A stretch of 64,000 bases of DNA from Anaerolineales bacterium (GCA_034434515.1 DAOTZA010000110.1:20429-84428); one strand, 5' to 3'. Shown: positions 6,375 through 43,131, counted from the stretch's first letter. The notes: a model not told the origin generated them from the letters alone. Program-made: numbers and translations.

Positions 6375-7043
6375 TTAACCTTCTCGATATTCGCCGATAT
6401 TATTCTTCAGCCATTGAAACCAGTTATCTAATCCTTCACCACTTCGACAAGAGACTAAAACCAATTCTACGGCAGGATTAAGCGCTTGCAAACCTTTACG
6501 GAAGAAATCGATATCAAAATCTACATAGGGTAATAAATCGATCTTATTTAACAGGACATAATCAACCCCACGATACATGGATGGGTATTTATGAGGTTTA
6601 TCGTGACCTTCTGGGACAGAAGCCACAAGCACATTGCAAGATGTTCCAAGTTCGAAGCTTGCCGGGCAGACCAGATTCCCTACATTTTCGACAATTAATA
6701 AATCATACTGGCTCAAGTCAGCTTGAATTAAAGCTTTGTTGAGCATCACGGCGTCCAAATGGCAATCGCCACCGGTGTTAATTTGGATCGCAGCCGCTCC
6801 GGCCGCAATGGCTCGATCGGCATCAAAGGTTGTGGCGATATCCCCATCAATGACCAGAATGCGATAGTCCTGTGAAAGCTTCTTTACGGTTTGCTCAATG
6901 AGAGAAGTTTTCCCAGCACCTGGAGCGGCCATCAAGTTGATTGAAAAGAGTCGTGCCTCTTGGAGCAAATGGCGATTTTGCTCGGCAATGGCATCATTGG
7001 CGCTGAGGATGTTTTGTATTATTTGGATGCGTTGTTCACTCAT
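6375..7043 (-). CDS. hypB: hydrogenase nickel-incorporation GTPase HypB
   Basis: P-loop GAPGAGKTSL, a CH motif (GGDCHLDA) and NKIDL. 4-nt overlap with hypA. Confidence 0.93.
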   Translation of the reverse strand: MSEQRIQIIQNILSANDAIAEQNRHLLQEARLFSINLMAAPGAGKTSLIEQTVKKLSQDYRILVIDGDIATTFDADRAIAAGAAAIQINTGGDCHLDAVMLNKALIQADLSQYDLLIVENVGNLVCPASFELGTSCNVLVASVPEGHDKPHKYPSMYRGVDYVLLNKIDLLPYVDFDIDFFRKGLQALNPAVELVLVSCRSGEGLDNWFQWLKNNIGEYREG

Positions 7044-7684: not shown

Positions 7685-9040
7685 ATGAAAGAACCTGAGC
7701 TGGTTGTAGTTGGTGGTGGTTTAGCGGGTTGTGAAGCTGCATGGCAGGCTGCACAACGGGGCGTTCGAGTGTGTCTGTACGAAATGCGACCATTGGTGAG
7801 TACCGGGGCGCATGGTACCGATCGGTTGGCTGAACTTATTTGTTCTAACTCACTTGGTGCAAACCAAATTGACCGCGCAACCGGCTTATTGCTCCATGAA
7901 CTGCGCCTGTTGGGTTCGTTGCTTATCCGCTGTGCCGATGAGACCGCCATTCCAGCCGGTAGAGCTTTAGCCGTTGATCGGGAAAAGTTTTCCTTAGCGG
8001 TGACTCAAGCTATTCTCTCACACTCAAACATTGTGGTTGTACGAGAAGAGATCAAGGCAATCCCCCAAAACCCCGCCATCATTGCCTCTGGGCCTCTAAC
8101 TTCCCCAAGCCTTTCAACTGCAATCGCCCACTTTCTGGGACAATCAAATCTGTATTTCTACGATGCTATCTCGCCGATTGTCGAGGCTGATACGATTGAC
8201 ATGAAGATTGCCTTCCGAGCAAGCCGCTATGATCAGGAAGGGGAGGGAGATTACATCAATTGTCCCATGAACAAAGAAGAGTATGAGCGCTTTGTCGAGG
8301 AATTGATCAAGGCTGAACGAATCCCCTTGCGCTCTTTTGAAGAACAAATTGAAAGCGGGGTAACAAGTGGCAAAGGACCATTTTTCGAAGCTTGTTTGCC
8401 GATTGAAATTTTAGCCAGGCGTGGTAAAGATGCCCTTGCATTTGGGCCACTTAGACCGGTCGGCTTAAGAGACCCAAAAACCGGTAAACGCCCCTATGCG
8501 GTGGTACAGTTGCGTCAGGACAATCTTGCTGGCACGCTTTACAACATGGTTGGCTTTCAAACTAATCTTACCTTCCCAGAGCAAAAAAGAGTTTTTCGTT
8601 TGATTCCCGGCCTGGAACATGCCGAATTCAGCCGTTTCGGTCAGATGCATCGCAATACCTACGTATTTGCTCCACAAGCCCTTAAGCCAACTCTTCAGAC
8701 CATACGGCGGCCCGATCTATTTCTTGCCGGACAACTGATCGGCGTCGAGGGCTATGCCGGAAACATCGCCAGCGGTTGGTTAGCAGGCATCAATGCAGCT
8801 CGTTTTCTCAGAGGGAAACCGCTCCTAGAATTGCCGCGAGAAACAATGTTCGGCAGCTTGATGTATTACATCACCCATGCTAACGAAAAGGACTTTCAGC
8901 CCATGAAAGCTAATTTTGGTCTTCTTCCTTGCAATGAAAGTGAACGGTTACGGAACAAAAAAGAGCGGCATCAATATTTTGCCCAGAGAGCTCACAATAT
9001 CCTTGAACGATGGTGGAGAGAATTCGGTGATTCGAGATAA
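7685..9040 (+). CDS. trmFO: methylenetetrahydrofolate--tRNA-(uracil54-C5)-methyltransferase TrmFO
   Basis: FAD fold [16 protein letters not shown], followed by CSNSLG and GQLIGVEGY motifs typical of TrmFO/Gid. Confidence 0.93.
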
Positions 9041-9041
9041 A

Positions 9042-9923
9042 TTGCGTATAGGTATATTTTTGGCCCTAATCCTGTTGTTGACAACGGGGGGTGGTTGTAA
9101 TTCCCGCCAGGCTGAAGTTTTCCATGCGAATCAAGTCTCTCAAGTTGAACAAGACTTGTCATTTCAAGTAAACTGTGGTCCAAGAACACCTGGCTCTACA
9201 TGTCATCAGCGCATTCAAGATTGGATCGCGTTAAGCCTTAAGGAGCAGAACTGGCAAGTTGAACCCCAATCCTTTTCGGTTGGTCAAATTCGGGGCACGA
9301 ATATCATTGGAAAGTATGGAAATGGAGCAAAATTCATTATCATTGGCGCCCACTATGATTCGCGATTTACATCCGACCAGGAGAAACAAGCTGAACTTCG
9401 CGAGCAGCCCGTGCCTGGGGCTAATGATGGCGCTTCTGGAGTTGCGTTGTTACTGTTGTTATCCAGAGAAATCCCACGACAAATTCCTCCTGCTGAGCAA
9501 ACTATCTGGCTGGTATTTTTTGACTTAGAGGATAATGGGAATTACCCTGGATGGGATTGGATCTTAGGTTCTACAGCCTTCGCCAGTTCCCTTACCGAAA
9601 CCCCATCTGCTGTTATTGTCGCTGACATGATCGGCGATCGAGACTTGAATATTTTCATGGAACACAACTCAACCGATGAGCTGAATCAGGAAATATGGCA
9701 AACAGCGCATCAGCTTGGCTATGAAGAATTTTTCATTTCTCAGCTAAAATATCGGATGATAGACGACCATATACCCTTTGTCCAACGCGGTTTCCCAACC
9801 ACTCTGCTGATTGACTTCGATTATCCCTATTGGCATACCACCCAAGATACATTGGATAAGGTTTCCGCTCAAAGTATTCTCATTGTCTATGATACACTTA
9901 TTAACTGGATAAGAAAGCAATGA
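9042..9923 (+). CDS. M28-family metallopeptidase / glutaminyl-cyclase-like lipoprotein
   Basis: GANDGASGVALLLLLSR, DLEDNG and HTTQDTLDKV are M28 metal-ligand motifs. The start is taken at TTG 9042, just after the trmFO stop, which gives a signal/lipobox-like LLLTTGGGC. The ORF-track start at 8916 would overlap trmFO by 125 nt. Confidence 0.72.
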   Translation: MRIGIFLALILLLTTGGGCNSRQAEVFHANQVSQVEQDLSFQVNCGPRTPGSTCHQRIQDWIALSLKEQNWQVEPQSFSVGQIRGTNIIGKYGNGAKFIIIGAHYDSRFTSDQEKQAELREQPVPGANDGASGVALLLLLSREIPRQIPPAEQTIWLVFFDLEDNGNYPGWDWILGSTAFASSLTETPSAVIVADMIGDRDLNIFMEHNSTDELNQEIWQTAHQLGYEEFFISQLKYRMIDDHIPFVQRGFPTTLLIDFDYPYWHTTQDTLDKVSAQSILIVYDTLINWIRKQ

Positions 9924-9924
9924 G

Positions 9925-11202
9925 ATGAGTGAAGAAAAACCAGTAACCTCACCAGCTCTCGTCAAGATAGTTAAAGATCTTCGGGAGTTTTTGCCTGAGA
10001 TCACAGAGCAGTTAACCAAGTCTTCTGGCATTCGCCCATCCCTTGAGAAACAATTGCTCTCCCTTTTGAGCGCATTGGAGGAAACTGCTCTTTTGCAGGA
10101 ATATTCCACCCTCGACCAAGTCTTAATGAATTGGGTTGCCCAATATACTGAAGCTGATATCCCTCAGGTGATTTTAGACCTGAGTGACTTCCTTCATTCT
10201 ATCCAGACAGCCTGTCAACAGGTCATCCAGAATCATCCAGAGACATTTGACTTTGCAGAGCGAAATTTTTCTTTTGAAATTTCCGAACTGTTTTTCCACA
10301 CTCAGAAGCGGTTAATACGAATCGGGTTCGAGAAATATGTCGATCAGCAATCAAGAACTGCTACTGAGATTCAAGCCATGCTAGAGAAATTAGACCAGAG
10401 TAAATCGAACTTTATTTCCATCGCTGCCCATGAGTTGAAGACCCCGTTGACGATCATTGAAGGGTATTCGATGATGCTGGGAGAGCTGCTCTTTGGCAAC
10501 GAAGGTTTTAAAACCTACTCACCTTACCTAGATGGAATTAAAAAGGGAACAGAAAGGTTAAAGCAAATCATCCAAGATATGATCGATGTCTCATTGATTG
10601 ATTCGCGGATGCTTCTATTGACCTTTCAACCTTGTCTGATCAATCGGTTAATCGAAACGGTTGTTGAAGATATGAAAAAGAGAGCGATGGATCGTGATTT
10701 GTTGATTCAATTTCGTCCGATAAAAGGTATGAACGAGCTAATCTATCTGGATGAAATTCGTCTCTCTCAAGCCCTGCGAAATATTATCGAAAACGCCATC
10801 AAATTTACTCCAGATGGGGGAAAGATAGAAGTGTATGGAAGAAAGCTCAGCGGATTTATCGAAATCATGGTGGAAGATACTGGCATCGGTGTAGACCCAG
10901 ATGATCAGCCACTGATTTTCGAGAAATTCTCGCAATTAGGACAGGTATCTTTGCATTCATCAGGTAGATCAAAGTTCAAGGGTGGGGGTGCTGGTTTGGG
11001 CTTGCCCATTGCTAAGGGAATTCTCGAAGCTCATGGTGGCACAATTTGGATGGAATCAGAAGGTTACGATGAAATCCGCTGTCCGGGATCGATATTTCAC
11101 CTGATGGTGCCAATTTATACCCAACCTCCTCAACCTTCAGCACAAATCTTCTCTGAGCTGCGGCACCAAAATCGTAATCGTCATCGAGCGAAAAATGGTT
11201 AG
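9925..11202 (+). CDS. cytoplasmic sensor histidine kinase (no adjacent response regulator)
   Basis: H-box SIAAHELKTPLT, N-box NIIENAIKFTP, and G-boxes EDTGIGV and GGAGLGLPIAKGI. No obvious TM segment. Confidence 0.85.
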   Translation: MSEEKPVTSPALVKIVKDLREFLPEITEQLTKSSGIRPSLEKQLLSLLSALEETALLQEYSTLDQVLMNWVAQYTEADIPQVILDLSDFLHSIQTACQQVIQNHPETFDFAERNFSFEISELFFHTQKRLIRIGFEKYVDQQSRTATEIQAMLEKLDQSKSNFISIAAHELKTPLTIIEGYSMMLGELLFGNEGFKTYSPYLDGIKKGTERLKQIIQDMIDVSLIDSRMLLLTFQPCLINRLIETVVEDMKKRAMDRDLLIQFRPIKGMNELIYLDEIRLSQALRNIIENAIKFTPDGGKIEVYGRKLSGFIEIMVEDTGIGVDPDDQPLIFEKFSQLGQVSLHSSGRSKFKGGGAGLGLPIAKGILEAHGGTIWMESEGYDEIRCPGSIFHLMVPIYTQPPQPSAQIFSELRHQNRNRHRAKNG

Positions 11203-36153: not shown

Positions 36154-36180
36154 ATCCCTCTATAGAGGGATTTTTTATTT
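36154..36180 (+). terminator. rho-independent terminator after tRNA-His
   Basis: ATCCCTC-TATA-GAGGGAT hairpin followed by TTTTTTATTT. The T-run overlaps the stop codon of the convergent gene. Confidence 0.7.
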
Positions 36181-37062
36181 CATTTCAAAGAAAAGTGCCT
36201 GGCGCATCTCGTGGATATGCTGCGGTGAGCTACCGCAACAAGCTCCAATTAACTTTGCCCCGAGATGACGCACGCTTTGGGCATGTTCCGCCATGACCTC
36301 TGGCAAACCATCATAAACCACTTTTCCATCCACTAGTTTAGGTATTCCGGCGTTAGCTTTAGAGATAATGGGTTTTTGACAACCTGCTTTGTGCATGCGA
36401 TCAATGACCGCTTCTAATTCTTGAGGTCCTTTGCCACAATTTGCCCCAACAGCACTCAACTCGAGCTCGTTGGCGAGTTGAACCAATTGCTCAGGCGTGA
36501 CACCCATCATCGTCCGCCCTTTGCTCTCAAAGGTCATGGTTACAGTAATCGGAAGGCGGGTGACCAATCGCGCCCCCTGAACAGCCGCTTTTACTTCTTG
36601 CAGGTCGGCCATTGTTTCAATCCAAATCACATCCACTCCGCCGCTGGACAATCCTGCAGCCTGCTCTGCGAACGCTTGAACTGCCGCTTCATAGGTCAAT
36701 TTTCCAAGCGGCGCCATCAGTTCGCCGGTCGGCCCCATTGATCCCGCAACAATAACGTTTGGATATTCATCGGCTACTGCGCGGGCTAATTCGGCTGCAG
36801 CAAGATTAATGTCGCGCACGCGGTCATCTAACCCATGTCTGCTCAGGCGGAAACGATTACCTCCAAATGTATTGGTTAGGATAACATTGGCCCCAGCCTC
36901 GATATACGCGCGATGAATTTCTTTCACCACCTCCGGATGCTCAAGATTCATCTTTTCAGGAGCTTGTCCGGCTTCCATGCCTTTTGACATCAACATCGTA
37001 CCCATTGCCCCATCCAGAAGTATCACTGTGGCTTCGGATAATAATTTTTCAAATTTATTCAT
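36175..37062 (-). CDS. homocysteine S-methyltransferase-domain protein (stand-alone MetH N-terminal-like)
   Basis: 295 aa. MGT...L, the GANVILTNTFG motif, and the zinc ligands GANCG and GACCGSSP are typical of the Hcy-binding S-methyltransferase domain. Confidence 0.8.
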   Translation of the reverse strand: MNKFEKLLSEATVILLDGAMGTMLMSKGMEAGQAPEKMNLEHPEVVKEIHRAYIEAGANVILTNTFGGNRFRLSRHGLDDRVRDINLAAAELARAVADEYPNVIVAGSMGPTGELMAPLGKLTYEAAVQAFAEQAAGLSSGGVDVIWIETMADLQEVKAAVQGARLVTRLPITVTMTFESKGRTMMGVTPEQLVQLANELELSAVGANCGKGPQELEAVIDRMHKAGCQKPIISKANAGIPKLVDGKVVYDGLPEVMAEHAQSVRHLGAKLIGACCGSSPQHIHEMRQALFFEMK

Positions 37063-37111: not shown

Positions 37112-37183
37112 TGGCGAGGGTGGGATTTGAACCCACAACCAAGGGCTTATGAGTCCCCTGCTCCACCATTGAGCTACCTCGCC
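37112..37183 (-). tRNA. tRNA with CAU anticodon (elongator Met or Ile2; not initiator), CCA not encoded
   Basis: Reverse complement folds as GGCGAGG / TA / GCTC-AATGGTG-GAGC / A / GGGGA-CTCATAA-GCCCT / TGGTT / GTGGG-TTCAAAT-CCCAC / CCTCGCC / A. The G1-C72 pair argues against a bacterial initiator. Positions 31-39 are an A/G mismatch. Confidence 0.82.
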
Positions 37184-37323: not shown

Positions 37324-38745
37324 TCAACTATTTGGCACAATTAATTCGTGAATAGCCCGCACAGCCCTTTGTTCATCAGCGCGATCGATGACCAGGGAAA
37401 TGGATACCTCCGATGAACCCTGAGCAATTGCAATGACATTGATCCCATTTGCACCTAATTTGCCGAAGATCCGTCCGGCAATGCCAGGTGTGCTGCGCAT
37501 CGCAGCCCCAACAATCGTAACAATCACGACCTCGTCGGTTGCCCAGATGCGATCAATGTCTCTGGTCGCCAATTCCCGGCTAAAAGCTTCATTCAAGGAT
37601 CGCAAAACAGTTTCAACAGACTTTTGCGGAACCGCAAAGCAAATCGATTGTTCTGAGGAGGCTTGCGTAATCAAGGGAACGCTCGTCCCGGTAGCTGCAA
37701 CAGCGCCAAAAGCTCGTGCGGCAACTCCGGGTACCCCTAGCATACCACGCCCCTCGATGGTCACCAGAGATTGCCCCTTGATTGAAGTTACCGCTTTGAT
37801 TACGCCATTGGTTTGCTTATCGTTCTCCACGGTCAAGAGAGTACCTGGATGCGAAGGGTTAAAGGTGTTCTTTACTCGAATAAGAATCCCGGCATCAATC
37901 AAGGGTTGCATGGTCTTGGGATGAACAACCTTTGCCCCATAGTAAGCCAGCTCACCGATTTCCCGAAAAGTCAACACATCAATGGTGGTTGCCTCTGGAA
38001 CAATCCGCGGATCGGCTGTCATCACACCATCGACATCCGTCCAAATCCAAACCTCCCTGGCCGGTAAACAGGCGCCCAATAAAGCTGCCGAGTAGTCACT
38101 GCCTCCGCGTCCAAGCGTAGTGGTAGTTCCATCCTCAGTCGCTGCAATGAAACCTGTCACAACCGGCACAATTTTGGAGCTTATTACAGGTAACAGCATT
38201 TCTTTGACTTTACGCTCCGTTTTTTCTCGAATCGGGTGAGCAGCTTGATAGGCGCTATCGGTCACAATCAACTTTGTAGCGTCCATAGACCTGGCTGAGA
38301 TTCCGCTAGCGTTTAAGTATTCAGCGAAAATGCGCACACACAGCATTTCACCAATCCCAGCGATCGCATCCAGGACGCGTGGCGTAGCTTCTCCAATGAT
38401 ATCAATCGCCCGACAGTATTCAGCAAACATGCTGATCAACTGATCGATTTGTTGCTTAACAAAGACTTTCCGTTCGGTCTCTTTAATTAGATCGTCCACT
38501 ACTTGATAATGTCGAGTAGTCAGGGCGCCGGCAATTTGTAAAACCTGATCATAGCGGCGATTTTTTGCCATTTCCGTGGAGCGAAGCAAATCATCGGTGA
38601 CTCCGGACATGGCTGATAAAACCACTACTGGCATCCATCCTTCCTTGATAGTGTTCTCTACAATACCTTTGACACCTGTCATTGCCTCGCTACTGCCAAC
38701 CGATGTACCCCCGAATTTCATTATTAGAAGTGGCTTATCTTTCAT
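37324..38745 (-). CDS. aspartate kinase (monofunctional, two C-terminal ACT domains)
   Basis: KFGGTSVG N-terminus, GRGGSDYSAALL, and WTDVDGVMTADPR. The ATG overlaps the upstream stop as ATGA. Confidence 0.93.
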   Translation of the reverse strand: MKDKPLLIMKFGGTSVGSSEAMTGVKGIVENTIKEGWMPVVVLSAMSGVTDDLLRSTEMAKNRRYDQVLQIAGALTTRHYQVVDDLIKETERKVFVKQQIDQLISMFAEYCRAIDIIGEATPRVLDAIAGIGEMLCVRIFAEYLNASGISARSMDATKLIVTDSAYQAAHPIREKTERKVKEMLLPVISSKIVPVVTGFIAATEDGTTTTLGRGGSDYSAALLGACLPAREVWIWTDVDGVMTADPRIVPEATTIDVLTFREIGELAYYGAKVVHPKTMQPLIDAGILIRVKNTFNPSHPGTLLTVENDKQTNGVIKAVTSIKGQSLVTIEGRGMLGVPGVAARAFGAVAATGTSVPLITQASSEQSICFAVPQKSVETVLRSLNEAFSRELATRDIDRIWATDEVVIVTIVGAAMRSTPGIAGRIFGKLGANGINVIAIAQGSSEVSISLVIDRADEQRAVRAIHELIVPNS

Positions 38746-41621
38746 CGTTCGTTCTCCTTGACAGAAATTACTGTTTGTCCTTCAAGTCGCCTGGCAAAAG
38801 CGGATAAAACCTCGTAGTAAGGCTTTATGCTGGGAATATAGTGTTTTTCGTTATACCCATGAGGATCAATACCACTCTGACCCCACACAACTCCCTGACC
38901 CGCTGGCGCAAAACGAGCGCTTGTAGCAGGTAATTTTTTGCCTATCCTGGGCGGCTCTTTGGCAACCTCTTGATACGCCTCCAGTAAAATCCGTAAATAG
39001 GGGTTTTCCGGACTGCAACGTATCCCTTTTTCGCATACCTTCAAGTGAAATTCCAGTTCATTTTGACGACATAGTTCTTCAAGATTCTTTACCAGTTCAT
39101 CGACATTTTCTTCAGGGATTGGGCGAACCTCTACACCCATAATAGCAAACTCTGGTGAGACATTGTACAAGCCCTCTTCCCCAATGCGCACAAAAGGTAT
39201 TTGAAATTGAGAATTCCACCGATCCGGGTTAGAAAGCTGGAGACTGCGCTGGAAAAGCTCAATCATTTTCTGCCGGAAGTCAAACAACTTGGCAGGCAGG
39301 TCTGCCTTTACCAGACTTCCAACAGAAGTTTGGCTCGTATGCGCCCGTGTGCCCCGCGCAATAATGTCAAACCGCATGATCCCTCGGTTGGAGGTACAGA
39401 TCTCACCCAGCAATTCATCGCCTTTTTCGCCAGTTCGCTCACCAGCAATAAATAACTCCGGTAAGGGGTATCCTTCGTTGCCAATCTGAGCCAAAACATG
39501 AGGTGTCCCCATCGGTTCAAACTCGCCATTTTCTTCATTGCCAACCAATAAAAGATTTACGGCTGGGTATGGTTCACTCTGCATTAGGCGGTCTTTGAAC
39601 CACACCAGATAAGTGGCTACCACTGTTTTCATATCCGCTGCCCCTCTACCGATAAGATAGTCTCCCTCTAAACGAGGCTGGAATTGAGATTCATCTGGAG
39701 CAGGTTGCACAACATCGAAATGTCCACTTAAAGTAACCGGGACATAAAGATGACCGGGGAATCCGATCAGTAAGGCAGGATATTTGTGTTTGTTGAAATA
39801 GCGAACTTCCAGGCCACTTCTTTCAGCATAGTTACAAATAAACGAAGCAGCAGAAGCCACATCTTCCAATCTCTCATTCGTACAGGCAGTTACGGATGGA
39901 ATTTGGATGAGTTGCATGGCAAGGTCAACGATTTCTGAGGTCTTATCAGCATAAACTTTGATGACTTGTAGCGGTCGCACCGGCTTAAATGAGATGGGAA
40001 TATTGGGGTATTGACGATACTCATCGCGACCGCGTTGGATCAGGTTCTCCAATTTATTTACCTCATTCCCCAAACGATAGAGTTCACCTTGGATCGTGGC
40101 GATATCGTTCTTGACCGCTTCTTCACGCTCTTCGGCTAATCTCTGTAAATACTCAAGGGGGATCTCGTCGACCTCGCCCAGTTCCTGCAAAACACGCCGA
40201 CGGATCTTCTGGGAGGTATTGGGTGCACCCTTTGACATTTCGACCAAGGGGTTAAGGAATGAAGTCATTTCTAACCCCTCTGCCAGTGGCGTGACTTCTT
40301 CCAAAACCCATCCCAAAAATTCCCGCACTCTGATGGGTTTCCCACTGAGAGGATTTTCGATTTCGGCATCTAGGCCATGGCGAGCAGCTTTTTCTTCATT
40401 GCGCCTAGCGCGCTCAATATCTTCTGTATCATACCGAAAGCTCACCGCAAAGGATGGATCGCTATAAAAACGGAGCAATAGAAGATATTTTAGAGTCAGA
40501 TTTGCCAAATCCGTCTCCATGTCATGTCCCCCCTCGTCACAGCGTACCTCAACCCTGGACATCGGGATATTAATCCGTGCCAGGAGATTCTGTTTTTCAA
40601 TTTCTCTTGCCATTTCTTCAGCTTGATCGTCTTTGCTAGCGGTGTAAAGACCTCGTGCATATAATTGGCGCAATTGGTCGGAGGTGATCGCGATCAAGCG
40701 CTCTACCGGTTCAGAAAAGGAACGCGCCCGAACCGGAGTCCAGTTGTTATTTCCAAATCGAATCCCTTTACGAACCAACTCATAAGAAATGCGCAAATAG
40801 TCCTCATATGAGCGATATAGGCCAGGCAAATCCAACAAAATGGGATTCGGAAAGGTCATGTTGCGAACCGAATCGGCTTTGGCGAGAACAATTACCTGCT
40901 TTCCGTTGCGATACTGGCTGACAAAGGGCGTCGAAGCGGTTGTCGCAATGAAAAGGGCTGCAAAAGCTCTGAGCAGTCGCGTGGAGCGGATATACACATA
41001 ATTTTTATATTCGTCGAGATGCTGAAAAGGTTGACTGATATGGTTGGCTAAATTTTGATTTTGGTGGACAAAATCCCAGGAGAGCAAAGTTTCTGGTAAA
41101 GAAAGATTTGTATGGATTCCCGCTGTCGCTAAGGCTGCTCCATATAAATCCACACATCGCTCAAGGTAACGTCGTTTGGCTAAATTCCATGAACCTGGGA
41201 TACAATCCTTGCCAAACTGGGGTTGAAAGAGCAAGTTTCCATGCCAGTAATAAAACCTTTCGCCAAATTTTTCGCTGGCTTGATGTAGGGCATTAATTAA
41301 GACCGCCTCCAATATTCTTGACTCATATACAGCTCCAATCAAATGATAATAGGGTCGCGTTGCCCACTCGATCATCCAGTGATAGACCTCTAATTGAGAT
41401 AGGGATCGGAAGGAAGGCGGTAGAATTTCATCACGCAGATAATCCACAAACGAAATCCGTTCCGGGCCTGACCCAACTGTCAATAGCGGCCAGAGACGCG
41501 AGTCGAGCATATTCCACTCTAGCTCATAACCGCAGATGCCGCTTTGTGGATTGGTCTGCTCTGCTACTTCTAGAGCATGACGAAATTTTTCCACAAACAA
41601 ATTTGGCTGATAATCACTCAT
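38742..41621 (-). CDS. fusion protein: GshA-like ATP-dependent carboxylate-amine ligase (N-terminal ~560 aa) + M20 metallo-amidohydrolase (C-terminal ~400 aa)
   Basis: N-terminal landmarks are GYELEWNML, MIEWATRP, AGIHTNLSLPE, NNNWTPVRARSF and RVEVRCDEGG, compared by memory with E. coli gamma-glutamylcysteine ligase. C-terminal M20 metal motifs are SGHFDVV, GRGAADMK and GNEENGE. Start at ATG 41621 behind GGAGG, overlapping the aminotransferase stop (ATGA). Confidence 0.75.
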   Translation of the reverse strand: MSDYQPNLFVEKFRHALEVAEQTNPQSGICGYELEWNMLDSRLWPLLTVGSGPERISFVDYLRDEILPPSFRSLSQLEVYHWMIEWATRPYYHLIGAVYESRILEAVLINALHQASEKFGERFYYWHGNLLFQPQFGKDCIPGSWNLAKRRYLERCVDLYGAALATAGIHTNLSLPETLLSWDFVHQNQNLANHISQPFQHLDEYKNYVYIRSTRLLRAFAALFIATTASTPFVSQYRNGKQVIVLAKADSVRNMTFPNPILLDLPGLYRSYEDYLRISYELVRKGIRFGNNNWTPVRARSFSEPVERLIAITSDQLRQLYARGLYTASKDDQAEEMAREIEKQNLLARINIPMSRVEVRCDEGGHDMETDLANLTLKYLLLLRFYSDPSFAVSFRYDTEDIERARRNEEKAARHGLDAEIENPLSGKPIRVREFLGWVLEEVTPLAEGLEMTSFLNPLVEMSKGAPNTSQKIRRRVLQELGEVDEIPLEYLQRLAEEREEAVKNDIATIQGELYRLGNEVNKLENLIQRGRDEYRQYPNIPISFKPVRPLQVIKVYADKTSEIVDLAMQLIQIPSVTACTNERLEDVASAASFICNYAERSGLEVRYFNKHKYPALLIGFPGHLYVPVTLSGHFDVVQPAPDESQFQPRLEGDYLIGRGAADMKTVVATYLVWFKDRLMQSEPYPAVNLLLVGNEENGEFEPMGTPHVLAQIGNEGYPLPELFIAGERTGEKGDELLGEICTSNRGIMRFDIIARGTRAHTSQTSVGSLVKADLPAKLFDFRQKMIELFQRSLQLSNPDRWNSQFQIPFVRIGEEGLYNVSPEFAIMGVEVRPIPEENVDELVKNLEELCRQNELEFHLKVCEKGIRCSPENPYLRILLEAYQEVAKEPPRIGKKLPATSARFAPAGQGVVWGQSGIDPHGYNEKHYIPSIKPYYEVLSAFARRLEGQTVISVKENER

Positions 41622-42934
41622 AAGGCCTCCAGGCTCTTCAAACCTTGAACCAGGCGTTCCAAAGCGCCTAACGTTCTTTCTACTGGTGTCGCATAAGAGA
41701 AGCGGATCCATTCTCCGCCATAAGCAGAGAAGAACGCACCCGGTACCACCGCTAAACCAAATTCTTCAGCAAAATACTGGCCCATCGGTTCTGTATCTGT
41801 CCACCCCTTTGCTTTCAACCACGCTCCAACATGGATAAAAGCATAATAACCTTTCCCCAGTATGTACTTGAACTGATGTTTATCCAGGAATTCTTTTAAA
41901 GCCTTGCGGCTGGCATTGGTAGGCTCGACAATGGGTTTGGAAGCTTTATCATACCCCATCTGATAAGCTGCCATAGCTACCGCCAAAGAAAAATACGGTG
42001 GCATGACCGTATGCGATGCCCGCGAAACGATGAACTTAATCACTTCTTCTGAAGCAATTAAATGACTATTGCGGATATTCGAACCACCCAGGCTTTTGGT
42101 TATTCCATCCAAAAATATTAACCGCTTTCGTTCCTCTTTTGTAAAATATTGTAAGAAGGAATTAAGATCCATGGGCTGTTCATCCGTCACGTAATGGTAC
42201 ATCCAATCAAACAACACGAATGCCACCCCAATCTCTAAAGCTTTCTTTGCCAGGCTGACTTGCCTTTCAACCGATAATGTCAATCCGGTTGGATTATCAG
42301 GATTGGTAATAACCAAACAAGCAACCTTGCGTCCCAGTTTGGCTGCATAATCCACACATTCCTGAATGCTCTCCTCAGTATATGCCCAGCCATTTTCTGG
42401 TTCTCCAGGGGCATAAAGGACATTTGCGCCAATTCCATAAGGTCCCCAATTGTAGGAAATCCAAGGCACTCTGGAAACGATGATCACGTCGCCAATGCGG
42501 CCGTATCCAAGCGATAGCATCGCTTGATAGGCTTTTACCAAAGCATCTCGCCCCCCGGCTGTACCAACTACATTGGCCGGCGTAATTCCCAACGGAGAAT
42601 CAAGTTTCCAGTAATCTTCAATCACCGAACGACGGAAATCATCTGTCCCGTAGGGCATATCGTAGGATGTCCCATGTTTGATTTGCATTTCGGCGGCTTT
42701 TTCTAGGATTTCTGGCAGGACTCCAGGCAAGCTGGCGCCTCCATCTCCTTGAGACGCATCGAAAATGGGCTGTCCGGGATATTTCTCTTGAAAAACCTTC
42801 AAAGATTTATTAATCAGGAACATTCGCGAGGGAGGAATGTCCATCATTTTTCTCAAATAATCATTGACTGGGATTAAGTTCTCCTGAGGAACTGCGAAGA
42901 CCGGTTGATCAAGGGGGGCAAGATTTTCCATCAT
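41618..42934 (-). CDS. divergent class I/II pyridoxal-phosphate aminotransferase, substrate unknown
   Basis: TNPDNPTG and the Lys motif GITKSLGGSNIRNS. An unusual N-terminal FDASQGDGGASLPG replaces the usual GEPDF motif. Confidence 0.85.
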   Translation of the reverse strand: MMENLAPLDQPVFAVPQENLIPVNDYLRKMMDIPPSRMFLINKSLKVFQEKYPGQPIFDASQGDGGASLPGVLPEILEKAAEMQIKHGTSYDMPYGTDDFRRSVIEDYWKLDSPLGITPANVVGTAGGRDALVKAYQAMLSLGYGRIGDVIIVSRVPWISYNWGPYGIGANVLYAPGEPENGWAYTEESIQECVDYAAKLGRKVACLVITNPDNPTGLTLSVERQVSLAKKALEIGVAFVLFDWMYHYVTDEQPMDLNSFLQYFTKEERKRLIFLDGITKSLGGSNIRNSHLIASEEVIKFIVSRASHTVMPPYFSLAVAMAAYQMGYDKASKPIVEPTNASRKALKEFLDKHQFKYILGKGYYAFIHVGAWLKAKGWTDTEPMGQYFAEEFGLAVVPGAFFSAYGGEWIRFSYATPVERTLGALERLVQGLKSLEAL

Positions 42935-42960
42935 TCACTCCTTTTCGTTTTCTTTATGAT

Positions 42961-42985
42961 AAAAAAACGCCCCAGATGGGGCGTT
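42961..42985 (-). terminator. intrinsic terminator / attenuator hairpin (AACGCCCC-ATCT-GGGGCGTT + U7) 26 nt upstream of the aminotransferase start
   Basis: Read on the minus strand: an 8-bp GC-rich stem, a 4-nt loop, and seven T. Located inside the 5' leader of the operon. Confidence 0.75.
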
Positions 42986-43014
42986 TTGGTTAATCGGTTT
43001 TCTTCACTAGCCAA

Positions 43015-43092
43015 TTAAGCGCGAACGCCCCACCGGTTTGGGTAGGTAGTGGTGGTCATCGTATTGGTGGTGGTCGCGCAGTCTGACATCAT
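43015..43092 (-). CDS. 25-codon Thr-rich leader peptide MMSDCATTTNTMTTTTYPNRWGVRA
   Basis: ATGATG at 43092 through TAA at 43017-43015. Eight of 25 codons are Thr (ACC x6, ACG, ACT), in two runs. Too short for the ORF track. Positioned between a promoter and a terminator hairpin. Confidence 0.6.
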   Translation of the reverse strand: MMSDCATTTNTMTTTTYPNRWGVRA

Positions 43093-43102
43093 ATTGGGCG
43101 CT

Positions 43103-43131
43103 AATATATCACCTGAAAAACAATCCGTCAA
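43103..43131 (-). promoter_or_regulatory. sigma-70-type promoter (TTGACG-17-TATATT) of the leader/aspartokinase operon
   Basis: Minus strand: TTGACG at 43131-43126, a 17-nt spacer, and TATATT at 43108-43103. The leader ATG is 10 nt downstream. Confidence 0.6.

What the first reader, a model, noticed from the sequence alone, without database searches (positions are those of the whole stretch)
37324..42934. ATGA-coupled operon (aminotransferase, ligase::M20 fusion, aspartokinase) that resembles a protect-transform-deprotect amino acid pathway
Gene coupling. The three genes are joined by ATGA stop/start overlaps at 41618-41621 and 38742-38745. They share the Thr-leader-controlled promoter, so co-expression in fixed stoichiometry is very likely.

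Why the content is suggestive. The set contains:
- an amino-acid-kinase-family enzyme (aspartokinase)
- a PLP aminotransferase with an atypical N-terminal motif (FDASQGDGGASLPG)
- an ATP-dependent amide ligase
- an M20 deacylase

This parallels pathways in which an alpha-amino group is masked, the side chain is activated and transaminated, and the mask is then removed by an M20 enzyme. Examples are the acylated diaminopimelate routes (DapD/DapC/DapE), ArgB-E, and LysW/LysX/LysZ/LysJ/LysK.

Hypotheses, which are inference only:
1. A variant aspartate-family branch, for example a diaminopimelate or diaminobutyrate-type route, that uses a gamma-glutamyl mask in place of a succinyl or acetyl group.
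2. An aspartate-derived compatible solute or dipeptide.

A gap. No reductase (asd-like) is present in the operon.
Basis: inference. Interest (0 to 1): 0.8.

Follow-up and report, generated by a model that had tools for sequence, protein, structure and literature searches.

The report
Aminotransferase–ligase–hydrolase module under Thr/Asn attenuator
A widespread, uncharacterised trio of enzymes (an aminotransferase, an ATP-dependent amide ligase and an amide hydrolase) is switched on by a leader peptide that senses threonine and asparagine shortage, so it probably marks an unrecognised step in aspartate-family amino acid metabolism.

Summary
On the minus strand, a promoter, a Thr-rich leader ORF and a terminator precede three genes joined by ATGA overlaps. 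These are a class I aminotransferase (AT), a 959-aa fusion of a glutamate-cysteine-ligase-fold ligase with an M20 hydrolase, and an aspartokinase.

It is AT + ligase + M20.
- AT lies upstream of the fusion in 55 of 57 loci from Chloroflexota, Acidobacteriota and others.
- A relative at about 20-30% identity keeps the same three enzymes as separate, adjacent genes. Named records are Peregrinibacteria/Peribacteria.
- Aspartokinase follows in only 3 of 55 related loci.

The leader is a classical attenuator rich in Thr and Asn codons, with almost no Lys codons. Occasional neighbours are asparaginase, homoserine dehydrogenase, Asd, ArgG/H and PEP carboxylase with AspC.

I therefore favour a ligate-transaminate-hydrolyse module tied to the aspartate pool, that is, an ATP-driven "ratchet" transamination (confidence about 0.35).

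Substrates are not established. I found no description of the module in the held literature. Interest is moderately high.

The parts
43103..43131 (-). Sigma-70-type promoter, TTGACG-17-TATATT, with TG before the -10 box.
   Evidence: 10 of 12 matches, and the only such site upstream of the operon. The same arrangement is seen in L001 and L002.
43015..43092 (-). Leader peptide ORF, MMSDCATTTNTMTTTTYPNRWGVRA. It has 8 Thr, 2 Asn and 1 internal Met in the regulatory run. It starts about 10 nt after the -10 box.
   Evidence: Homologous Thr/Asn-rich leaders occur in 28 other loci. A scan of all loci and the window found such leader-plus-terminator units only at this position.
42957..42987 (-). Intrinsic terminator of the attenuator, AAAACGCCCC-ATCT-GGGGCGTTTT, followed by a T run.
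   Evidence: It is conserved, with a compensatory CG-to-UA change in L006 and L032. An upstream segment, ACGGGRCGTTGGT, is complementary to its 5' half and would act as antiterminator.
41618..42934 (-). Class I PLP aminotransferase, 438 aa, of a divergent subfamily.
   Evidence: PF00155, E = 2e-20. It is below every NCBIfam equivalog cutoff. The best solved relative is Thermus AspAT at 71 bits. Invariant residues are K280 (PLP lysine), R411, N214, D243, Y246 and R129 (at the position of Thermus K109), plus the motif D59-S61-G63-D64.
40002..41621 (-). N-terminal domain of the fusion (residues 1 to about 540): an ATP-dependent carboxylate-amine ligase with the glutamate-cysteine-ligase fold.
   Evidence: AlphaFold model with pLDDT 87.7 and pTM 0.91. 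Foldseek matches: GshA 3nzt at E = 2e-10; YbdK 1r8g and 1tt4 at target TM 0.72-0.77; E. coli and plant GCL; PafA. A sequence profile hits only YbdK, at 4e-7. E33, E35, E85, H170, R253, R298, R356, E358 and R360 are invariant, including in relatives at about 20-30% identity.
38742..39956 (-). C-terminal domain of the fusion (residues about 556-959): an M20 metallo-amidohydrolase of the ArgE/DapE type, with a lid/dimerisation domain.
   Evidence: PF01546 and PF07687. Foldseek matches 2rb7 at E = 9e-22, then DapE, ArgE and CPG2. H634, D636, D663, E696, E697, E728, H761, H921 and H927 are invariant. It scores 84.7 bits against the DapE model, whose cutoff is 284.
37324..38745 (-). Monofunctional aspartokinase with two ACT domains. 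It is a facultative member of the operon.
   Evidence: It is present after the fusion only in the window, L002, L028 and L062.

Best explanation
Shown
- The functional unit is a three-enzyme module, in the order: class I aminotransferase, glutamate-cysteine-ligase-fold ATP-dependent amide ligase, M20 amide hydrolase. The last two are usually fused.
- In Anaerolineales it is transcribed from a promoter followed by a ribosome-mediated attenuator whose leader peptide is rich in Thr and Asn codons.
- Aspartokinase has joined the operon in a few lineages, including this window.

Inferred mechanism of regulation
- When Thr-tRNA or Asn-tRNA is scarce, the ribosome stalls in the leader.
- The segment ACGGGRCGTTGGT then pairs with the 5' half of the terminator, and transcription reads through.

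Inferred mechanism of the enzymes
- The ligase spends ATP to join a carboxylate to the amino group of a carrier amino acid. The carboxylate is most simply the gamma-carboxylate of Glu; alternatively it is the distal carboxylate of oxaloacetate.
- The aminotransferase acts on the alpha-amino or alpha-keto end of that acyl part.
- The M20 domain then hydrolyses the amide and releases the carrier.
- The net reaction is a transamination made irreversible by ATP, a "ratchet" like glutamine synthetase + glutamine transaminase + omega-amidase.
- I propose its product is aspartate, to refill the pool that feeds Thr, Asn, Arg and nucleotides when oxaloacetate or aspartate is limiting.
- The identity of the substrates is not established.
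For: Module conservation
- AT lies upstream on the same strand in 55 of 57 eligible loci from several phyla.
- AT (54-75% identity) is better conserved than the fusion (44-62%).
- Relatives at about 20-30% identity keep AT, ligase and M20 as three separate abutting genes in L068, L083, L084/85, L086/87, L088, L089 and L090.
- Fusion, split forms and constant order argue for consecutive steps on a shared intermediate.
- Both domains keep their catalytic residues, and so does AT.
- A GCL-type product (N-acyl amino acid) is the substrate class of M20 enzymes. This rests on established knowledge of DapE, ArgE, LysK and CPG2.

Regulation
- Thr makes up 160 and Asn 87 of 966 leader residues.
- The regulatory runs hold 3-8 Thr and 1-5 Asn, and 1 Lys in 29 runs.
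- Leader-plus-terminator units of this kind were found only upstream of AT, across all fetched loci and the window.
- The terminator covaries.
- Met codons appear in the run in 4 of 4 operons with aspartokinase, against 2 of 25 without. Leader content therefore tracks operon content.

Aspartate context
- Asparaginase lies directly upstream in L068 and L086/87; homoserine dehydrogenase lies downstream in L086/87.
- PEP carboxylase and AspC lie next to L068.
- AK-Asd-ArgG-ArgH follow the fusion in L028, and AK-Asd in L062.
- Peribacteria have almost no amino acid biosynthesis but make nucleotides, and have PEP carboxylase, asparaginase and AspAT (PMC4736985).
- AT's nearest solved relatives are AspATs, and it keeps a basic residue (R129) at the position of Thermus AspAT Lys109. 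From my recollection of the literature, not checked here, that lysine binds the distal carboxylate of acidic substrates.

Precedent
- The ketoglutaramate ratchet is described in PMC6302742.
Against: - No substrate is known, and nothing here distinguishes which side of the amide is transaminated.
- AT shows no special similarity to known glutamine transaminases.
- If the module supplies aspartate, Met, Lys and Ile codons might also be expected in the leader, and they are not.
- EamA or LysE exporters directly downstream in at least five loci are not explained by a recycling carrier.
- Three loci (L062, L064, L066) have AT plus M20 but no ligase within 10 kb. The ligase is therefore dispensable or replaceable there.
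- L068 already has an ordinary AspC nearby.
- A ligase fused to a hydrolase of its own product class risks a futile cycle unless the aminotransferase step is fast or channelled.
Confidence: 0.35

Rival explanations
1. One reading: a variant acyl-diaminopimelate branch.
- The ligase replaces DapD by attaching a carboxylate (for example gamma-glutamyl) to ring-opened tetrahydrodipicolinate, using ATP.
- AT acts as DapC on the 6-oxo group.
- The M20 domain acts as DapE.
For: - Only a substrate with two alpha-centres, such as 2-amino-6-oxopimelate, lets a class I aminotransferase act on the amine-side partner of the amide (inference).
- M20's best family-level matches are DapE and ArgE.
- The order AT, acylating enzyme, M20 is the same as in genuine dapC-dapD-dapE clusters of Betaproteobacteria, seen in L078 and others.
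- AK and Asd follow the module in L028 and L062. L062, L064 and L066 lack the ligase, as would be expected if an ordinary DapD served there.
- A LysE-family exporter is present in L002.
Against: - The attenuator carries Thr/Asn (and Met) codons and essentially no Lys. Inducing a diaminopimelate branch under Thr starvation would drain aspartate semialdehyde away from Thr.
- No L-box or other known riboswitch was found.
- AT scores 38-41 bits and M20 85 bits against DapC and DapE models with cutoffs of 284-593. Genuine enzymes score 537-569.
- The module occurs next to asparaginase in Peribacteria/Peregrinibacteria records. Ca. Peribacter riflensis genomes are reported to have few amino-acid biosynthesis genes (PMC4736985).
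- L028 carries LysX/Y/Z-type genes, which suggest a non-diaminopimelate lysine or arginine route.
Confidence: 0.15
2. The module makes, and controls the level of, a stable aspartate-derived amide. Candidates are asparagine via an amidated keto acid, a beta-aspartyl or gamma-glutamyl dipeptide, or a compatible solute. The M20 domain would be the opposing turnover activity, as in bifunctional glutathionylspermidine synthetase/amidase.
For: - Asn codons in the leader.
- Asparaginase adjacent in L068 and L086/87.
- EamA or LysE exporters directly downstream in several loci would fit an exported or overflow product.
- A fusion of opposing activities has a precedent. This rests on established knowledge of E. 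coli Gss.
Against: - Induction by Thr starvation is not explained.
- M20 enzymes are not known to release ammonia from Asn-type side-chain amides.
- A housekeeping-like, single-copy distribution with tight aminotransferase linkage fits a biosynthetic step better than a solute.
Confidence: 0.15
3. Salvage or catabolism. An imported N-acyl, gamma-glutamyl or beta-aspartyl amino acid (or a peptidoglycan-derived peptide) is hydrolysed by M20 and its parts are transaminated to yield aspartate-family amino acids. The ligase re-activates or re-routes one fragment, as gamma-glutamylation does in the Puu pathway.
For: - Induction under amino acid shortage.
- Transporters are adjacent.
- Hosts are largely fermentative scavengers and CPR symbionts that rely on external amino acids (PMC4736985).
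Against: - EamA and LysE families are mainly exporters.
- An ATP-consuming ligase fused to the hydrolase is hard to place in a simple salvage route.
- No binding-protein or ABC importer is conserved nearby.
Confidence: 0.1
4. No shared pathway. AT is simply this lineage's aspartate aminotransferase. The fusion has an unrelated role, for example thiol or gamma-glutamyl-cysteine metabolism, and is merely co-regulated.
For: - AT's nearest solved relatives are AspATs.
- The ligase fold is that of glutamate-cysteine ligase, and M20 includes Cys-Gly dipeptidases (plus established knowledge).
Against: - Adjacency holds in 55 of 57 loci, and order is conserved in relatives at about 20-30% identity with split genes.
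- AT is only about 25% identical to real AspATs and is below all equivalog cutoffs.
- L068 has a separate AspC.
- The regulatory run of the leaders is not enriched in Cys codons.
Confidence: 0.1

Closest known systems
DapC-DapD-DapE (succinylase branch of diaminopimelate synthesis)
   Same: - The logic is the same: acylate an amine, transaminate an alpha-keto acid with a class I aminotransferase, then deacylate with an M20 enzyme.
- The gene order (AT, acylating enzyme, M20) is the same as in Betaproteobacteria loci L071-L078.
- Both belong to the aspartate family.
   Different: - The acylating enzyme here is an ATP-dependent GCL-fold ligase, not a CoA-dependent hexapeptide acyltransferase.
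- AT and M20 fall far below the DapC and DapE model cutoffs.
- Regulation is by Thr/Asn, not Lys.
- Ligase and hydrolase are fused.
LysW/LysX/LysZ/LysY/LysJ/LysK and ArgB-E (amino-group protection in Lys and Arg synthesis)
   Same: - A gamma-glutamyl-type amide is formed with ATP and later removed by an M20 hydrolase (LysK, ArgE).
- A transamination occurs in between.
- An amino-acid-kinase-family enzyme is sometimes in the operon.
   Different: - The ligase is GCL fold, not ATP-grasp.
- There is no room for a LysW carrier gene in the operon.
- The aminotransferase is class I (alpha-keto acids), not class III (semialdehydes).
- The kinase is a true ACT-domain aspartokinase and is usually absent.
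Glutamine synthetase + glutamine transaminase + omega-amidase (ketoglutaramate ratchet; PMC6302742)
   Same: - An ATP-dependent ligase of the GS/GCL superfamily makes an amide.
- A class I aminotransferase uses the amidated amino acid.
- A hydrolase removes the amide from the keto product, which makes the transamination irreversible.
   Different: - The hydrolase is M20, not nitrilase-superfamily.
- AT is not specifically related to KAT/GTK enzymes.
- The three genes are clustered or fused here, whereas GS is separate there.
- The amine partner is probably an amino acid rather than ammonia (inference from M20 chemistry).
E. coli thr operon attenuator (thrL)
   Same: - A short leader ORF with a run of Thr codons.
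- A terminator with an alternative antiterminator pairing.
- Control of an aspartokinase-containing operon.
   Different: - There is no Rfam match.
- The second regulatory amino acid is Asn (and Met when aspartokinase is present), not Ile.
- The leader ORF starts about 10 nt after the -10 box.
- The main regulated genes are AT and the fusion, not thrABC.
PuuA/PuuD-type gamma-glutamylation pathways and bifunctional glutathionylspermidine synthetase/amidase
   Same: - ATP-dependent gamma-glutamyl or amide tagging, followed by transformation and hydrolytic removal (Puu).
- A ligase and a hydrolase for the same bond type in one polypeptide (Gss).
   Different: - Different folds: PuuA is GS type I, PuuD is a class I amidotransferase-like hydrolase, and Gss is ATP-grasp plus CHAP.
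- Those systems are catabolic or redox-buffering, not attenuator-controlled amino acid metabolism.

Membership tests
DapE (succinyl-diaminopimelate desuccinylase) | Scores at or above the equivalog model cutoff (NF009557: 284 bits; TIGR01246: 361.8 bits). | tested here: not met
   84.7 and 63 bits. A genuine DapE in L078 scores 537.5 and 509.3 bits.
DapE (succinyl-diaminopimelate desuccinylase) | M20 fold with di-metal ligands, a catalytic Glu and a lid-domain His. | tested here: met
   Foldseek matches to DapE structures at E about 1e-19. H634, D663, E696/E697, E728, H761 and H921/H927 are invariant. The assignment of residues to roles is by motif and is an inference.
DapC (N-succinyldiaminopimelate aminotransferase) / DapL | Scores at or above the equivalog cutoffs (355-593 bits). 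| tested here: not met
   38-41 bits. A genuine DapC in L078 scores 568.6 bits.
Acyl-diaminopimelate pathway as a system | Lys- or diaminopimelate-responsive control, or linkage to dapA/dapB. | tested here: not met
   1 Lys codon in 29 leader runs. No lysine riboswitch. No dapA or dapB was noticed among the annotated neighbours, though not every neighbour was annotated.
Acyl-diaminopimelate pathway as a system | Acts on tetrahydrodipicolinate / N-acyl-2-amino-6-oxopimelate. | not testable with these tools
   Needs enzyme assays or complementation of dap mutants.
LysW-type amino-group carrier pathways (LysX/Z/Y/J/K) | ATP-grasp ligase, small LysW carrier and class III aminotransferase. | tested here: not met
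   The ligase has the GCL fold. The genes overlap or abut, so no carrier ORF fits between them. The aminotransferase is PF00155, class I/II.
Glutamate-cysteine ligase superfamily (GshA / GCS2 / YbdK) | GCL fold. | tested here: met
   Foldseek: 3nzt at 2e-10; 1tt4 and 1r8g at target TM 0.72-0.77; 1v4g; 2gwc. The sequence profile hits YbdK at 4e-7.
Glutamate-cysteine ligase superfamily (GshA / GCS2 / YbdK) | Pfam GCS2 (PF04107) match above the gathering score. | tested here: inconclusive
   The window protein has no hit at E <= 0.01. Many homologues have precomputed hits, some weak.
Glutamate-cysteine ligase superfamily (GshA / GCS2 / YbdK) | Conserved metal/ATP-binding acidic, His and Arg residues. 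| tested here: met
   E33, E35, E85, H170, R253, R298, R356, E358 and R360 are invariant across 31 sequences down to 19% identity. Mapping them onto GshA residues is an inference.
Glutamate-cysteine ligase superfamily (GshA / GCS2 / YbdK) | Forms gamma-glutamylcysteine. | not testable with these tools
   Substrates are unknown. The family is a small isolated clade: 141 clusters at 50% identity among 1.8 billion proteins.
Glutamine transaminase / omega-amidase ratchet | KAT/GTK-type aminotransferase and nitrilase-family omega-amidase. | tested here: not met
   No KAT/GTK entry appears by name among the 34 solved relatives of AT. The hydrolase is M20. Only the logic is shared.
Ribosome-mediated transcription attenuator | A short ORF with a run of regulatory codons, an intrinsic terminator, and an alternative pairing that excludes the terminator. 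| tested here: met
   Leader and terminator. They are conserved in 29 loci. Segment ACGGGRCGTTGGT is complementary to the terminator's 5' half, and the terminator covaries. The response to Thr or Asn has not been tested.
Rfam Thr leader and other described leaders or riboswitches | A match at the gathering score. | tested here: not met
   Only tRNAs were found in the window. Nothing was found upstream of AT in 14 other loci.
Aspartokinase | AA_kinase domain plus ACT domains; TIGR00657 at or above its cutoff. | tested here: met
   411 bits against 208.7. It is below the equivalog cutoff of PRK06291 (480.5 against 528).

The most novel reading that the evidence does not exclude
The AT-ligase-M20 module is a previously unrecognised, ATP-driven biosynthetic route in the aspartate family. 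It would run through an amide-linked (gamma-glutamyl or beta-aspartyl) intermediate. It would replace or supplement a canonical step (AspAT-type aspartate formation, or DapD/C/E) in Anaerolineae, Acidobacteriota and some CPR bacteria. It would be controlled by a new Thr/Asn-sensing attenuator class.
Probability: 0.35. Interest if true: 0.8.

Novelty: new variant of a known kind. Interest (0 to 1): 0.65.

Why it matters
- Pathway gaps. If the module is a real pathway step, it would fill a gap in amino acid metabolism for large, mostly uncultured groups (Anaerolineae, Thermoanaerobaculia/Holophagae, Peregrinibacteria) that are abundant in sediments, digesters and wastewater. It would also change auxotrophy predictions made from their genomes.
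- New enzyme roles. It would add a new use for the glutamate-cysteine-ligase fold and a new ligase::M20 fusion. It could be a second natural example of making a transamination irreversible with ATP.
- Regulation. The Thr/Asn attenuator is a described-nowhere regulatory element, with no Rfam match. Its codon content tracks the operon's gene content.
- Testability. All of this can be tested directly with two recombinant proteins and standard E. coli auxotrophs.

Tried and rejected
1. Sequence search of the ligase domain against solved structures gave only coiled-coil noise. The fold was recovered only after structure prediction of the domain with an alignment. The full-length model returned only M20 hits.
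2. I considered that the Thr/Asn/Arg codons reflect ANN codons read by t6A-modified tRNAs. Rejected: 83 of 88 Arg codons are CGN.
3. I considered Arg as a third sensed amino acid. Left open: many Arg codons lie in the conserved GRW segment that forms the antiterminator, so they may be structural.
4. The recurrent downstream neighbours c2 and c3 looked, from their sequences, like a histidine phosphatase and RarA (not run against Pfam), on the opposite strand. I take this as lineage synteny, not part of the system.
5. Genes inserted between AT and the fusion in some loci are unrelated: a methyltransferase, a WD40 protein, an ATPase, or ORFs with no hits.
6. No known riboswitch lies upstream of AT in other phyla.
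7. Window genes from 21 to 62 kb hold no other aspartate-family enzymes.
8. Literature searches found no description of the module. The terms covered Chloroflexi leader peptides, carboxylate-amine ligase + M20 + aminotransferase, and novel diaminopimelate routes. GapMind 2026 does not mention it.
10. The "559 relatives" include ordinary DapE genes (L069-L082), so that number is not used as a count of the fusion.

Full report
**1. What is in the window**

On the minus strand, three ORFs lie at 41618-42934 (438 aa), 38742-41621 (959 aa) and 37324-38745 (473 aa). The longest ORF of the middle gene begins at 41711. Homologues of 959 aa align from the ATG at 41621, so that is the real start.

Upstream lie three control elements:
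- a TTGACG-17-TATATT promoter at 43131-43103;
- a 25-codon ORF, MMSDCATTTNTMTTTTYPNRWGVRA, at 43092-43015;
- a strong terminator at 42987-42964.

The leader RNA folds better than all 200 shuffles, with z = -3.8. Downstream of the aspartokinase come a tRNA-Met with its own promoter-like sites and a homocysteine S-methyltransferase. Window G+C is about 46%. The closest relatives are Anaerolineales metagenome-assembled genomes.

**2. The proteins**

*Aspartokinase.* The third gene is an ordinary monofunctional aspartokinase with ACT domains.

*Aminotransferase.* The first gene is a class I/II PLP aminotransferase. It reaches no NCBIfam equivalog cutoff; the best scores are 87 and 79 bits against cutoffs of 415-550. 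Its nearest solved relatives are Thermus and Thermotoga AspATs, at only 61-71 bits. The alignment shows the PLP lysine (K280), the carboxylate-binding Arg (R411), N214, D243 and Y246. An Arg (R129) lies where Thermus AspAT has Lys109, which, from my recollection of the literature and not checked here, binds the distal carboxylate of acidic substrates.

*Fusion, C-terminal part.* The middle protein has a C-terminal M20 domain. Its best structural matches are 2rb7, DapE, ArgE and CPG2. The metal ligands, the catalytic Glu pair and the lid His are invariant. It scores 85 bits against a DapE model whose cutoff is 284.

*Fusion, N-terminal part.* The N-terminal 540 residues have no Pfam hit in the window protein and no solved relative by sequence. 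A domain model (pLDDT 87.7, pTM 0.91) matches glutamate-cysteine ligases, YbdK and PafA. A profile hits YbdK at 4e-7. E33, E35, E85, H170, R253, R298, R356, E358 and R360 are invariant across 31 sequences down to 19% identity. This fits an active acyl-phosphate-forming ligase. The domain family is small and isolated: 141 clusters at 50% identity among 1.8 billion proteins.

**3. What is conserved around it**

A scan of GTDB species genomes returned 65 loci with a close relative (44-63% identity). The record titles name Chloroflexota, Acidobacteriota (Thermoanaerobaculia, Holophagae, Aminicenantes), Methylomirabilota and Phycisphaerae. The remaining loci are ordinary DapE genes.

| Feature | Count |
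|---|---|
| AT upstream of the fusion, same strand | 55 of 57 loci with enough upstream DNA |
| ...of those, within 160 nt | 42 |
| Aspartokinase after the fusion | 3 of 55 loci, plus the window |
| Asd after that aspartokinase | L028 and L062 |

L028 continues with ArgG, ArgH and LysX/LysY/LysZ-type genes. EamA or LysE exporters follow the fusion directly in L001, L002, L008 and L045, and c61, the same cluster as the L008 EamA, follows one small ORF later in L065. Three loci (L062, L064, L066) have AT plus an M20-only protein and no ligase within reach. L053 and L063 appear to have the ligase and M20 as separate ORFs.

A second, distant family has AT at about 20-23% identity and the ligase at about 22-30%. 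The named records are Peregrinibacteria or Peribacteria. It keeps AT, ligase (about 560 aa) and M20 (500-710 aa) as three abutting genes in L068, L083, L084/85, L086/87, L088, L089 and L090. L091 has AT plus ligase only. Extra neighbours there point to aspartate:
- asparaginase directly upstream in L068 and L086/87;
- homoserine dehydrogenase downstream in L086/87;
- archaeal-type PEP carboxylase and an AspC-type aminotransferase beside L068.

Published Ca. Peribacter genomes have almost no amino acid biosynthesis. They do have nucleotide synthesis, PEP carboxylase, asparaginase and AspAT (PMC4736985).

**4. The regulatory element**

Leaders homologous to the window's are found upstream of AT in 28 further loci, mostly labelled Anaerolineales or Chloroflexota.
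- Thr is 160 and Asn 87 of 966 residues.
- The densest 14-residue runs contain 3-8 Thr and 1-5 Asn. Lys occurs once in 29 runs.
- A blind scan of all fetched loci and the window, on both strands, looked for a short ORF with a Thr/Asn run followed by a terminator. It gave 20 hits, all at this position.
- The terminator is conserved, with a compensatory CG-to-UA change in two loci.
- The codons for (T/A)-G-R-W (ACGGGRCGTTGGT) are complementary to the terminator's 5' half, ACCAAACGCCCCG. This is the classic 2:3 antiterminator.
- Arg codons are CGN and partly belong to these pairing segments, so I do not count Arg as sensed.
- Met codons sit in the run in all four operons that contain aspartokinase, and in 2 of 25 that do not. 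Fisher p = 6e-4, but the lineages are not independent. Leader content therefore follows operon content, and AT plus fusion by themselves go with Thr and Asn.
- No Rfam family matches.
- Other phyla also have terminators upstream of AT, without Thr/Asn leaders.

**5. How it most likely works**

*Shown.* Three catalytically intact enzymes are kept together, in fixed order, through fusion and fission and across about 20% sequence identity. In Anaerolineales they are controlled by Thr and Asn supply. Their occasional partners are aspartate-family enzymes.

*Inferred.* The product class of a GCL-type ligase (an N-acyl amino acid) is the substrate class of M20 hydrolases. The simplest reading is therefore that the ligase makes an amide, the aminotransferase changes one partner, and M20 splits the amide. 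A class I aminotransferase works on alpha-amino or alpha-keto acid centres, which leaves two cases.

- (a) It acts on the acyl partner: gamma-Glu-X to 2-oxoglutaryl-X, or oxaloacetyl-X to beta-Asp-X. X is recycled, and the net result is an ATP-driven, irreversible transamination. This is formally like glutamine synthetase + glutamine transaminase + omega-amidase (PMC6302742).
- (b) It acts on the amine partner, which must then carry a second alpha-centre. In primary metabolism that means 2-amino-6-oxopimelate.

The Thr/Asn (not Lys) attenuator favours (a), with aspartate as the product. So do the asparagine, oxaloacetate and homoserine neighbours, the occurrence in Peregrinibacteria/Peribacteria records, a group reported (for Ca. 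Peribacter) to have few amino-acid biosynthesis genes, and the failure of the DapC and DapE membership tests. I give (a) about 0.35.

Case (b) keeps about 0.15, for these reasons:
- the gene order mirrors genuine dapC-dapD-dapE clusters;
- AK and Asd sometimes follow the module;
- ligase-less AT-M20 pairs exist.

The exporters and the absence of Met and Lys codons are not explained by (a). The substrates remain unknown.

**6. Verdict**

The protect-transform-deprotect logic and the aspartate-family link hold. However, the conserved unit is AT + ligase + M20, not the trio with aspartokinase, and the diaminopimelate and diaminobutyrate readings fit the evidence poorly.

I found no description of the module or the attenuator in the held literature or in Rfam. 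It is best classed as a new variant of known pathway logic built from known folds. It is widespread in uncultured phyla and directly testable.

Noticed in passing
window 43092-43108 (minus strand); L001 about 6500-6520; L002 about 6480-6495: The leader ORF starts only about 10 nt after the -10 box, with no Shine-Dalgarno motif. The sequence GCCCAATATG is conserved there. The leader peptide is therefore probably translated from a leaderless or near-leaderless transcript.
   Followed up: partly
Leader runs in the window, L002, L028 and L062 versus 25 other loci: Met codons lie inside the Thr/Asn run in 4 of 4 operons that include aspartokinase, but in only 2 of 25 without it. Leader codon content seems to be tuned to operon content. 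The lineages are not independent.
   Followed up: partly
L025 about 8480-8570; L026 about 8440-8530; L067 about 8570-8670: Acidobacteriota/Holophagae loci have a 5' element and terminator upstream of AT that is conserved between L026 and L067. It has no Thr/Asn leader and no Rfam match. It may be an undescribed attenuator or riboswitch for the same module.
   Followed up: no
L001 11049-11966; L008 12940-13827; L045 10061-10984; L002 10862-11479; L065 1238-2173: EamA-family exporters (L001, L008, L045), a LysE-family exporter (L002) and, in L065, c61, the same cluster as the L008 EamA, lie on the same strand just downstream of the fusion (one small ORF intervenes in L065), in loci labelled Chloroflexia/Anaerolineales and Thermoanaerobaculia (L001 and L002 are unlabelled metagenome contigs). 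They are unexplained by the favoured model.
   Followed up: partly
L062 331-5729; L064 8745-11281; L066 about 8681-11173: Some Chloroflexota keep AT next to an M20-only protein (388-394 aa) with no ligase domain within about 10 kb. In L062 the order is leader, AT, M20, AK, Asd.
   Followed up: partly
window 36175-37062 (minus strand) and tRNA-Met 37112-37183; L001 13161-14054: A 295-aa homocysteine S-methyltransferase lies just downstream of the operon, behind a tRNA-Met. It scores 362.9 bits against the betaine-homocysteine methyltransferase model, above the cutoff of 338. The same family lies near the fusion in L001, beside formate-tetrahydrofolate ligase and corrinoid-protein genes.
   Followed up: no
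L028 7455-13511: After AT, fusion, AK and Asd, this locus continues with ArgG, ArgH, a LysX-type ATP-grasp ligase, an ArgC/LysY-type reductase and an ArgB/LysZ-type kinase. This suggests a carrier-protein-type arginine or lysine route in this Anaerolineaceae genome.
   Followed up: no
L071-L078 (for example L078 7138-11173): The pattern scan also pulled in genuine dapC-dapD-dapE clusters of Betaproteobacteria. They have the same order (aminotransferase, acylating enzyme, M20) as the module under study.
   Followed up: yes
L068 12931-17316: A 1461-aa protein with a C-terminal transglutaminase-like core follows the M20 gene in a Peribacteria genome.
   Followed up: no
L003 and L022 record titles: Close relatives (57-59% identity) sit in bins labelled Bacteroidota and Aminicenantes. 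AT there is about 70% identical to the window's. This could be misbinning or recent transfer, so taxonomic breadth should be read with care.
   Followed up: no
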